This document shows, piece by piece, positions 16,266 through 23,309 of a stretch of 64,000 bases of DNA. This DNA is from Eledone cirrhosa. Its lineage: Eukaryota. The DNA is taken from contig OZ024766.1 in the NCBI GenBank assembly GCA_964016885.1, forward strand, positions 11,594,001 through 11,658,000, in the 5' to 3' direction. Under the pieces are notes generated by a model. It made no database searches. It was given only the letters and a program-made list of their open reading frames with translations, and was not told the origin of the DNA. Position 1 is the stretch's first letter. Every line of letters begins with the position of its first letter. The position numbers and the translations under genes are program-made.

Positions 16266-17300
16266 TTATTCAAAATGCTTTCCTCTAGCTCTCACTACTG
16301 CTCGAAGACTTCTAGGAAAGTCTTCGATGGCTGCACGAACAGTTTCCATGGGTATTTTCTCCCATACTTTATTCAGTTTTGATTTTAGAGTTTCAATATT
16401 TTGGCTAGGAGTAGAGCAGACTTCACTCTCAAGAATTGACCATACAGAAAAATCGAGAGGGTTGAGATCTGGTGATGTGGGAGGCCACTCTTTCTTGCTG
16501 ATCCATGCAGGACAATGGTCTCTACACCACTGTTGTGTTATGCAAGCAGTGTGGCTCGTCGCTCCATCTTGTTGGAGAGTTCAAATGTCATCACCATAAA
16601 CAGATATGCACCATGGCATCAGTGCTCCTTCCAAAATATCCTTTATGCAAAGTTCTTTGTTAATCTTAACTCCTTGAGGCACAAATATCAGAGGAGACTT
16701 CCCTCTTTCAGAAATGGCTGCCCAAACCATCACTGATGCTGGTTTCTGTGTTCTGAACACTTTTCCTACACTTGAAGGAATTGATTTGAGACTTTTTGCA
16801 GGTACTCGATCATTTTGATGATTGTGAGACTGCTGCACAGTGAATAACTTCTCATCTGTAAAGATGATGTTTTGCAGCGTGCCATCCTTGATAGGGTTCA
16901 ATAACAGTTTACTTCTGGAGAGCCTCTTTTCAATTGTGGCTGCAGAAAGAAGATGCCTCTTTTGGAACTTATAGGGTGACACCCCCAGATCATCTCGACA
17001 TATCCTCCGCATAGTTCTCGGTGATGTTTCTGCTTCTTCTGCCATTTTTCTCATGGACCTTCTTGGATTACGCCTAATTTTCCCCTCACACTTTTAACGA
17101 GTTTTGGTGTTCTTGAGGTGCGAGGGCATCCGGATTGAGGTCTGTCTTTGGTCGAGGAAGTTTCCTTAAATCGATCAATTGTCCTTTTGATCAACATTCT
17201 ATTGATCTTAAGAATTTTCCCCAGTTTAAATATCTTGGGTGGAGTCAGGCCTTTTTTCATGCTTCTCTATAATGAACTTTCTTTTCAATTCTATGGACAT
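16266..17300 (-). pseudogene. DD37D transposase pseudogene
   Basis: FTDEKLF, VMVWAAIS, QQDGA-x-WPPTSPDLNPLD with 37 residues between the 2nd and 3rd D; frameshifts near 17250 and 17080; in-frame stop at 16581. Confidence 0.9.
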
Positions 17301-20300
17301 TGCAAATTGTTAATGGAGTAATGTTCTGAAAAATAGTTAATATGGTTAGGGTTAGGGTTAAGGGTTATGGTTAAGGTTAGGTTAGGGTTAGGGTTAAGAT
17401 TAGGGTTAGGTTAAATATCTCGGGTGGAGTCAGGCCTTTTTTCATGCTTCTCTATAATGAACTTTCTTTTCAATTCTATGGACATTGCAAATTGTTAATG
17501 GAGTAATGTTCTGAAAAATAGTTAATATGGTTACGGTTATGGTTAAGGTTAGGTTTAAGGTTACGGTTAGGGTTAGGTTAAATATCTCGGGGGGAGTCGG
17601 GCCTTTTTTCATGCTTCTCTATAATGAACTTTCTTTTCAATTCTATGGACATTGCAAATTGTTAATGGAGTAATGTTCTGAAAAATAGTTAATATGGTTA
17701 GGGTTAAGGGTTATGGTTAAGGTTAGGTTAGGGTTAGGGTTAAGATTAGGGTTAGGTTAAATATCTCGGGTGGAGTCAGGCCTTTTTTCATGCTTCTCTA
17801 TAATGAACTTTCTTTTCAATTCTATGGACATTGCAAATTGTTAATGGAGTAATGTTCTGAAAAATAGTTAATATGGTTAGGGTTATGGTTAAGGTTAGGT
17901 TTAAGTTTAGGGTTAGGTTAAATATTTCGGGTGGAGTCAGGCCTTTTTTCATGCTTCTCTATAATGAACTTTCTTTTCAATTCTATGGACATTGCAAATT
18001 GTTAATGGAGTAATGTTCTGAAAAATAGTTAATATGGTTAGGGTTATGGTTAAGGTTAGGTTTAAGTTTAGGGTTAGGTTAAATATCTCGGGTGGAGTCA
18101 GGCCTTTTTTCATGCTTCTCTATAATGAACTTTCTTTTCAATTCTATGGACATTGCAAATTGTTAATGGAGTAATGTTCTGAAAAATAGTTAATATGGTT
18201 AGGGTTAGGGTTATTGTTAAGGTTAGGTTTAAGGTTAAGGTTAGGGTTAGGTTAAATATCTCGGGTGGAGTCAGGCCTTTTTTCATGCTTCTCTATAATG
18301 AACTTTCTTTTCAATTCTATGGACATTGCAAATTGTTAATGGAGTAATGTTCTGAAAAATAGTTAATATGGTTAGGGTTAAGGGTTATGGTTAAGGTTAG
18401 GTTAGGGTTAGGGTTAAGATTAGGGTTAGGTTAAATATCTCGGGTGGGGTCAGGCCTTTTTTCATGCTTCTCTATAATGAACTTTCTTTTCAATTCTATG
18501 GACATTGCAAATTGTTAATGGAGTAATGTTCTGAAAAATAGTTAATATGGTTAGGGTTATGGTTAAGGTTAGGTTTAAGTTTAGGGTTAGGTTAAATATC
18601 TCGGGTGGAGTCAGGCCTTTTTTCATGCTTCTCTATAATGAACTTTCTTTTCAATTCTATGGACATTGCAAATTGTTAATGGAGTAATGTTCTGAAAAAT
18701 AGTTAATATGGTTAGGGTTATGGTTAAGGTTAGGTTTAAGGTTAGGGTTAGGGTTAGGTTAAATATCTCGGGTGGAGTCAGGCCTTTTTTCATGCTTCTC
18801 TATAATGAACTTTCTTTTCAATTCTATGGACATTGCAAATTGTTAATGGAGTAATGTTCTGAAAAATAGTTAATATGGTTAGGGTTAGGGTTAAGGGTTA
18901 TGGTTAAGGTTAGGTAAGGGTTAAGATTAGGGTTAGGTTAAATATCTCGGGTGGAGTCAGGCCTTTTTTCATCCTTCTCTATAATGAACTTTCTTTTCAA
19001 TTCTATGGACATTGCAAATTGTTAATGGAGTAATGTTCTGAAAAATAGTTAATATGGTTACGGTTAAGGTTAGGTTTAAGGTTACGGTTAGGGTTAGGTT
19101 AAATATCTCGGGTGGAGTCAGGCCTTTTTTCATGCTTCTCTATAATGAACTTTCTTTTCAATTCTATGGACATTGCAAATTGTTATTGGAGTAATGTTCT
19201 GAAAAATAGTTAATATGGTTAGGGTTAGGGTTAAGGGTTATGGTTAAGGTTAGGTTAGGGTTAGGGTTAAGATTAGGGTTAGGTTAAATAACTCGGGTGG
19301 AGTCAGGCCTTTTTTCATGCTTCTCTATAATGAACTTTCTTTTCAATTCTATGGACATTGCAAATTGTTAATGGAGTAATGTTCTGAAAAATAGTTAATA
19401 TGGTTAGGGTTAGGGTTATTGTTAAGGTTAGGTTTAAGGTTAAGGTTAGGGTTAGGTTAAATATCTCGGGTGGAGTCAGGCCTTTTTTCATGCTTCTCTA
19501 TAATGAACTTTCTTTTCAATTCTATGGACATTGCAAATTGTTAATGGAGTAATGTTCTGAAAAATAGTTAATATGGTTAGGGTTATGGTTAAGGTTAGGT
19601 TTAAGGTTACGGTTAGGGTTAGGTTAAATATCTCGGGTGGAGTCGGGCCTTTTTTCATGCTTCTCTATAATGAACTTTCTTTTCAATTCTATGGACATTG
19701 CAAATTGTTAATGGAGTAATGTTCTGAAAAATAGTTAATATGGTTACGGTTAGGGTTAAGGGTTATGGTTAAGGTTAGGTTAGGGTTAGGGTTAAGATTA
19801 GGGTTAGGTTAAATATCTCGGGTGGAGTCAGGCCTTTTTTCATGCTTCTCTATAATGAACTTTCTTTTCAATTCTATGGACATTGCAAATTGTTAATGGA
19901 GTAATGTTCTGAAAAATAGTTAATATGGTTAGGGTTAGGGTTATTGTTAAGGTTAGGTTTAAGGTTAAGGTTAGGGTTAGGTTAAATATCTCGGGTGGAG
20001 TCAGGCCTTTTTTCATTTTTCTCTATAATGAACTTTCTTTTCAATTCTATGGACATTGCAAATTGTTAATGGAGTAATGTTCTGAAAAATAGTTAATATG
20101 GTTAGGGTTATGGTTAAGGTTAGGTTTAAGGTTAGGGTTAGGTTAAATATCTCGGGTGGAGTCAGGCCTTTTTTCATGCTTCTCTATAATGAACTTTCTT
20201 TTCAATTCTATGGACATTGCAAATTGTTAATGGAGTAATGTTCTGAAAAATAGTTAATATGGTTAGGGTTAGGGTTAAGGGTTATGGTTAAGGTTAGGTT

Positions 20301-23300: not shown

Positions 23301-23309
23301 TATGGTTAT
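17227..23309. repeat. Array of ~36 units of 155-187 bp: ~120-bp transposase 5' segment plus degenerate (TTAGGG)n tract
   Basis: Constant aaatatctcgggtggagtcagg...aaaatagttaatat alternating with variable ggttag/ggttaa/ggttat runs. Confidence 0.95.

What the first reader, a model, noticed from the sequence alone, without database searches (positions are those of the whole stretch)
17227..23309. Transposon-telomere hybrid satellite inside a maT element
Seen: ~36 near-invariant copies of the transposase start region (including the ATG) alternate with degenerate TTAGGG-like tracts of roughly 35-70 bp, all between the TIRs. The tract joins at ggtta, which the native element already has (aatatggttata at 23299-23310), and exits at ttaaatat. 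Known: TTAGGG is the common metazoan telomere repeat, and telomerase can extend breaks at short seeds. Inference: a telomere-like insertion with a ~120-bp duplication, then amplification. If carried by other maT copies, this would be a transposon spreading interstitial telomeric arrays.
Basis: partly seen in the sequence, partly recalled or inferred. Interest (0 to 1): 0.75.

Follow-up and report, generated by a model that had tools for sequence, protein, structure and literature searches.

The report
Telomere-like minisatellite in one dead transposon
One broken copy of a common jumping gene holds 35 tandem repeats of a 118-base piece of itself plus a short telomere-like filler; no other copy examined carries it, and the filler was likely copied from an older telomere-like patch about a million bases away, so this is likely a local repair accident rather than a transposon spreading telomere DNA.

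Summary
The array is there as described: 36 near-identical 118-bp cores alternate with 35 TTAGGG-like tracts of 37-67 bp inside a maT/DD37D copy. The dispersal idea fails. All 35 entry and 31 exit junction matches in the 3.0-Gb genome lie at this locus, against 138 native junctions, and 0 of 59 other copies read carry a tract. The host copy is broken and mid-scaffold. TTAGGG is this organism's telomere, but the tracts are 11.3% from perfect while cores differ 0.54%. An 830-bp degenerate tract 1.16 Mb away on the same scaffold shares the array's variant vocabulary best, though not its order, so copying from it is likely but unproven; telomerase plus slippage is the main rival. Core-plus-telomere arrays occur at two other loci read, and the scan noted similar cases elsewhere in this genome. 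Raw reads gave no test of the junctions. New member of known kinds.

The parts
16142..23409 (-). maT/DD37D DNA transposon copy, expanded to 7,268 bp (family copies about 1,308 bp)
16142..16168 (.). Inverted end at the transposase 3' side; two changes against the family in its first 7 bases
16266..17300 (-). Broken transposase frame: two frame changes and one early stop; 37 residues between the second and third aspartate; Pfam DDE_3 and HTH_Tnp_Tc3_2 hits below curated cut-offs
17226..17343 (+). First 118-bp core, continuous with the transposase body
17344..23185 (+). 35 TTAGGG-like tracts (37-67 bp, G-rich on +) alternating with 34 internal cores; higher-order blocks marked by shared substitutions
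19457..21533 (+). Six-unit higher-order duplication (units 14-19 and 20-25) with the same three marked cores
23186..23303 (+). Last 118-bp core, continuous with the native 5' end of the element
23304..23308 (+). Native GGTTA seed, in register with TTAGGG; present in the other family copies
23383..23409 (.). Inverted end at the transposase 5' side

Best explanation
This is a single-locus minisatellite inside one broken maT transposon copy, which likely began when a replication or repair fork stopped at the element's own GGTTA seed, likely copied about 40-70 bases from an existing degenerate telomere-like tract 1.16 Mb away, and rejoined 118 bases upstream. That made one core-plus-filler unit. 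The unit was then likely multiplied to 35 by unequal exchange or slippage, and slippage among the 5-7-base subunits likely varied the fillers faster than the cores. Shown: single locus, fixed junctions, block duplications, broken host, shared vocabulary with the nearby tract. Inferred: template switching, the donor and its direction. My odds: single-locus passive array about 0.9; this filler source about 0.55.
For: Single locus: entry junction 35 of 35 genome-wide matches here; exit junction 31 of 31 here; native junction 138 matches, 100 listed, on many scaffolds; 0 of 59 other copies read hold even two adjacent GGTTA units. One founder: same entry in all 35 tracts and same exit register. Amplification: unit blocks recur with their marker substitutions (I/L-J-E-K-A-F twice; K-A-F-M/O-N-D twice). 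Filler not a fresh perfect insert: 11.3% from perfect against 0.54% among cores and 2.1% of the host from the family majority. Candidate donor G000:C27:10,452,465-10,453,300, same strand: a 23-mer of 16 array units has 7 outside matches, 5 of them there; a 24-mer has 2 outside matches, both there; best of 43 telomere-like loci for variant spectrum (cosine 0.92) and shared 18-mers (58 of 227, next 39); only locus of the 12 tabulated with AGGTTA, TGGTTA, GGTTTA and AGGGTTA all at array-like rates, and it holds 9 bases of the entry context. Only 4 loci genome-wide have the dense GGTTTA-AGGTTA pattern and one is this neighbour; by hand, 4 x 2.3 Mb / 2,996 Mb is about 0.3% if such loci were evenly spread.
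Against: No tract matches the candidate exactly (edit distance 3-8). The likeness is composition only: shared 18-mers 58 against 61.1 after shuffling its subunits (674 of 1000 reach it), 24-mers 29 against 20.4 (166 of 1000). By summed edit distance it ranks third of 43, behind L101 and L103 (73 against 65 and 70). It lacks AGATTA, CGGTTA and the 5-base GGTTA unit. Two long-tract words have no outside match at all. The patterns were chosen after I had seen the candidate, and the 24-mer's outside match equals only 1 of the 12 array copies. A looser 25-mer has 112 matches over many loci, so AGGTTA-rich tracts arise repeatedly. Such loci may be enriched on small, repeat-rich scaffolds, which would weaken the proximity figure.
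Confidence: 0.52

Rival explanations
1. Telomerase added perfect TTAGGG at a break just after GGTTA, the end rejoined upstream with a 118-bp duplication, and the tract then degenerated by slippage and a raised mutation rate before and during amplification.
For: TTAGGG caps 3 of 18 scaffold ends read, in the right orientation. The seed is in register, as for most mammalian short ITS, and duplication is a recorded class (4.6% of rodent, 16% of primate loci; PMC2246262 passages). About 9 perfect units sit at a seed in a SINE-like repeat at C1:3.226 Mb. Long and short tract types differ at several places with no fixed core difference, so tracts do change fast inside the array.
Against: About 0.68 edits per hexamer (11.3%) against 0.12-0.14 for young and 0.29-0.40 for old mammalian ITS, in a host only about 2% from its family. 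The variants commonest in this genome's other degenerate blocks (GTGTTA, GGATTA, GCTGTTA) are absent from the array. It does not explain the neighbour with the same vocabulary.
Confidence: 0.28
2. A plain tandem duplication through the TTA shared by the core's two ends left one GGTTA at the joint, which grew as a microsatellite by slippage alone; TGGTTA and AGGTTA are re-copies of the joint's own flanks.
For: 62% of the window is tandem repeat, with many arrays inside other repeats. First and last subunits of 34 of 35 tracts are the 5-base seed. In a SINE-like tail 7 of 8 matches are two-unit point variants and 1 is expanded. At C25:9.07 Mb tracts range 25-233 bp within one array.
Against: The native site has one GGTTA and no GGG; growth from a single unit to the exact telomere hexamer is unlikely without a template (inference). 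0 of 59 other copies show any expansion at the seed.
Confidence: 0.13
3. The array is an assembly or library artefact.
For: No read or contig laid spans a core-tract junction (the tool skipped that part).
Against: Nested block duplications carry their own substitutions, and tracts fall into 15 related types; read errors or collapsed repeats would not be expected to give this (inference). No N in the window.
Confidence: 0.04
4. maT copies carry the hybrid unit and spread interstitial telomeric arrays.
For: The family has copies with open transposase frames (6 of 16 full-length copies analysed), and the array lies between the inverted ends.
Against: All junction matches are at one locus; 0 of 59 other copies; this copy has a broken frame, two changes in one inverted end and 5.6 times the normal length.
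Confidence: 0.02

Closest known systems
Short interstitial telomeric sequences inserted at repaired breaks (PMC2246262; passages seen)
   Same: In-register seed at the entry; flanking duplication; empty site readable from the repeat family
   Different: Filler is 2-5 times more degenerate than the paper's old and young loci, and the unit was amplified 35-fold
Satellites formed by tandem amplification of part of a transposable element (review PMC10048060, passage seen)
   Same: Array made of an internal piece of an element, lying between its ends
   Different: The unit includes foreign telomere-like DNA
Element-borne repeats: Tetris TIR-220 (PMC4079207, abstract and outline); oyster Helentron arrays (PMC7492417, search listing only)
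   Same: Tandem repeats inside a DNA transposon
   Different: There the repeat is a regular part of many copies and is dispersed; here 1 copy has it and 59 read do not
Tandem duplication with templated insertion by template switching (FoSTeS/MMBIR, polymerase theta; recalled, no paper read)
   Same: Duplication plus filler with short homologies at the joints and a candidate donor in cis
   Different: The filler is low-complexity, so the donor cannot be fixed by an exact match
maT/DD37D transposons (bioRxiv 10.1101/2022.10.13.512200, passages seen)
   Same: 1.3 kb, about 346-aa transposase, DD37D, short inverted ends
   Different: This copy is broken and carries a 6-kb array

Membership tests
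maT/DD37D (host element) | 37 residues between second and third catalytic aspartate | tested here: met
   Spacing 37 in all 13 of 16 family copies where the motif was found; same motif in the window's frame
maT/DD37D (host element) | About 1.3 kb with a transposase of about 346 aa | tested here: met
   16 full copies of 1,306-1,311 bp; open stretches of 347 aa or more in 6 of 16; criteria
maT/DD37D (host element) | Inverted ends of 13-48 bp, TA at the flanks | tested here: met
   27-bp imperfect ends, TA on both sides; whether the outer TA is target or element was not resolved
maT/DD37D (host element) | Placement in the maT clade on a tree | not tested
   No tree with reference transposases was built
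Telomerase-type short ITS | Inserted motif equals the organism's telomere repeat | tested here: met
   TTAGGG at C6 end, C7 start, C9 start
Telomerase-type short ITS | 1-8 bases in register at the break | tested here: met
   Native GGTTA
Telomerase-type short ITS | Near-exact hexamers when young | tested here: not met
   About 0.68 edits per hexamer against 0.12-0.14; passes only the paper's loose filter of under 1 per unit
Telomerase-type short ITS | Telomerase-RNA fragment at the joint (a minority of loci) | not testable with these tools
   The organism's telomerase RNA is not on hand; no non-repeat filler is seen
Transposon-borne dispersed satellite | Repeat shared by several element copies at different sites | tested here: not met
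Transposon-borne dispersed satellite | Array lies within the element's ends | tested here: met
Tandem duplication with templated insertion | Insert matches an identifiable donor | tested here: inconclusive
   Vocabulary and rare words match one neighbour; order does not beat shuffles
Tandem duplication with templated insertion | Short homology at both switches | tested here: inconclusive
   9 bases at entry in the candidate, but 8 in a rival; at exit only TTA/TTAA, which any such tract offers

The most novel reading that the evidence does not exclude
Existing interstitial telomere-like tracts seed new ones without telomerase: a fork stalled at a 5-9-base seed switches to a degenerate tract a megabase away in cis, and the product is amplified into a hybrid satellite. 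This locus would be a datable case with its empty site preserved in over a hundred sister transposon copies, and other core-plus-telomere arrays in this genome could have the same origin.
Probability: 0.4. Interest if true: 0.5.

Novelty: new member of a known kind. Interest (0 to 1): 0.27.

Why it matters
As a single passive array in a window that is 62% tandem repeat, it matters little. It does warn that telomere-like signal inside this genome need not mark a fusion or telomerase action. If the link to the neighbouring tract holds, it is a clean example of an interstitial telomere-like tract begetting another by template switching, with the ancestral state known from sister copies; that would make the telomerase-versus-capture question testable at this locus in population data.

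Tried and rejected
Read support: laid 4 runs on window 17270-17500; the tool skipped 17270-17414 as repeat and no listed piece bridged a junction, so no verdict. laid 4 runs on the flank of the candidate donor: one run (X19) gave contigs with 0 differences over 195 and 304 bases, so it is likely the same species and may be the source sample; the tract itself was skipped; the other three showed only short repeat-like pieces, so the donor's age could not be tested. Run shares under 0.2 were not interpreted. One search's pattern was mis-built (it excluded the array's own exit); its 0 matches were not used; one search replaced it. Subtelomeric position rejected: the array is at 11.61 of 22.36 Mb and neither end of that scaffold shows TTAGGG; no further tract in 20 kb on either side of the window. 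A coding role rejected: each core reads 24 residues to a stop at its own boundary. A strong G-quadruplex role not pursued: a simple G-run score was 0.99 against 1.5 for perfect repeats. A SINE subfamily carrying TTAGGG rejected: 7 of 8 matches are two-unit point variants. In one search only 29 windows from 9 of 25 comparator loci passed my density filter; one search widened this (43 loci gave rows) and weakened the edit-distance result. No look-alike note by sequence. Paper searches found no description of this element or array: (open-access library only; supplements not read).

Full report
Observation. The window lies at G000:C27:11,594,001-11,658,000 in a 3.0-Gb assembly. That the animal is an octopus-like cephalopod is my recall and the wording of earlier notes, not a result of my calls. 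Between 17226 and 23303 there are 36 cores of exactly 118 bp and 35 tracts of 37-67 bp in 15 types. Cores differ 0.54% from their majority. All tracts begin at GGTTA and are followed by the core's TTAAATA. The longest run of whole TTAGGG units is 2 and the mean distance from a perfect repeat is 11.3%.

Host element. Imperfect 27-bp inverted ends at 16142-16168 and 23383-23409 enclose a minus-strand transposase. A genome search gave 275 candidates, of which 40 were scored; the 39 other copies are 95-97% identical. Sixteen full copies are 1,306-1,311 bp, 6 of 16 have an open stretch of 347 aa or more, and the spacing between the second and third aspartate is 37 in all 13 where the motif was found. 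These are the maT features given in bioRxiv 10.1101/2022.10.13.512200 (passages). The window's copy is 2.1% from the family majority, has two frame changes and an early stop, and two changes in one inverted end. One frame change (a run of six T) is in all 36 cores, so it predates the array.

Dispersal. The entry junction has 35 matches in the genome, all here. The exit junction has 31, all here (one search was mis-built and is not used). The native form of the entry has 138 matches, one of which should be the window's own last core (100 listed). I read 59 other copies (19, 40's list): none holds two adjacent GGTTA units or an array.

Amplification. Unit order shows nested blocks with their own substitutions: units 14-19 recur as 20-25, and 23-28 recur as 30-35. 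This fits unequal exchange after one founding event (inference) and argues against an artefact. Reads did not test it: the tool skipped the repeat. The background is high: 62% of the window is tandem repeat and it holds many other arrays of 30 bp or longer period.

Source of the filler. TTAGGG caps 3 of 18 scaffold ends read, and eight perfect units occur 41,132 times, including a large internal block. The seed is in register and duplication is a known class of short ITS (PMC2246262 passages). But the tracts have about 0.68 edits per hexamer, against 0.12-0.14 for young and 0.29-0.40 for old mammalian ITS in that paper, in a host only about 2% old by divergence. A 16-mer common to most tracts, chosen blind, had 123 matches (control 1); 97 of the 100 listed lie outside the array. 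Of 20 such places read, most are degenerate telomere-like blocks. One, at C27:10,452,465-10,453,300, is 1.16 Mb from the array on the same strand and lies just past the stop of a FAM110_C-bearing frame. It holds 5 of the 7 outside matches to a 23-mer of 16 units and both outside matches to a 24-mer. It is first of 43 loci for variant spectrum and shared 18-mers, third for summed edit distance. Only 4 loci have its dense GGTTTA-AGGTTA pattern.

Results against that link. The patterns were chosen after I saw the locus. Shuffling its subunits gives as many shared words (58 against 61.1; 29 against 20.4, reached by 166 of 1000), so only composition is shared. It lacks three array variants. Two long-tract words are private to the array. 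A looser 25-mer has 112 matches at many loci. I therefore put copying from this tract at about 0.55 given a real array, telomerase plus fast decay at about 0.3, slippage alone at about 0.15.

Context. Two other core-plus-telomere arrays turned up among the loci read: a 63-bp spacer with tracts of 25-233 bp at C25:9.07 Mb and a 201-bp spacer with tracts of 221-363 bp at C3:277.55 Mb. A tract at C27:6.68 Mb lies inside a 1,025-bp inverted repeat. Earlier unreviewed notes describe comparable cases elsewhere in this genome. So the architecture recurs with unrelated cores; it is not a maT trait.

Comparison and verdict. Satellites built from part of an element are known (PMC10048060 passage; PMC4079207 abstract), and so are short ITS with duplications. 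Template switching with templated inserts is recalled, not read here. Six paper searches found no account of this locus or family. The finding is a real, single-locus member of known kinds; the one open and testable point is whether a neighbouring degenerate tract, not telomerase, supplied the filler. Interest 0.27.

Noticed in passing
L101 (G000:C25:9,066,000-9,068,200, minus strand): Tandem array of a 63-bp spacer (TA run plus a SINE-head-like start, label recalled) and GGGTTA/AGGTTA tracts of 25-233 bp, about 11 units, short tracts at one end
   Followed up: partly
L104 (G000:C3:277,550,980-277,552,880): Four telomere-like tracts of 221-363 bp separated by a 201-bp spacer
   Followed up: partly
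L102 (G000:C27:6,679,400-6,679,800); L107; L068: Telomere-like tracts inside inverted repeats: 1,025-bp arms at 92.5% (L102), 204-bp arms at 91% (L107); L068 shares flank sequence with L102. A foldback family may be the real carrier of such tracts
   Followed up: partly
L084 (G000:C1:3,225,950-3,226,003): About 9 perfect TTAGGG units at a seed in the tail of a SINE-like repeat; 7 other matches have only two units
   Followed up: yes
L073:6411-9998, minus strand (G000:C27:10.453-10.457 Mb): Long low-complexity open frame ending in a FAM110_C domain (E 1e-16); the 830-bp telomere-like tract starts about 100 bp past its stop
   Followed up: partly
G000:C9:21.38-21.80 Mb (L070, L108, L118): Large block in which telomere-like tracts alternate with T-rich TTTTTCGA-like stretches
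   Followed up: no
G000:C1:217.8-218.0 Mb, C2:242-243 Mb, C3:184.6-184.8 Mb, C4:101.5 Mb, C8:23.5-23.8 Mb: Large internal blocks of degenerate TTAGGG, several with a GCTGTTA variant
   Followed up: partly
window 55980-61305, minus strand: LINE-like element: 992-aa reverse-transcriptase-like frame, an endonuclease-like piece and a 621-aa upstream frame (labels from recall)
   Followed up: no
window 5150-5722: Seven copies of an 81-bp unit in frame inside the C-terminal part of a LINE-like frame: another amplification inside an element, without filler
   Followed up: no
window 35526-36185, 45160-46454, 55105-55742, 61394-62476: Four arrays of a 72-bp unit that look like the same family, in both orientations
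   Followed up: no
window 42525-42845, minus strand: Fragment of a second Tc1/mariner-type transposase (label from recall)
   Followed up: no
L003, L004, L006, L008, L009, L016: maT copies with open transposase frames, 1.3-2.3% from the family majority: a young family
   Followed up: partly
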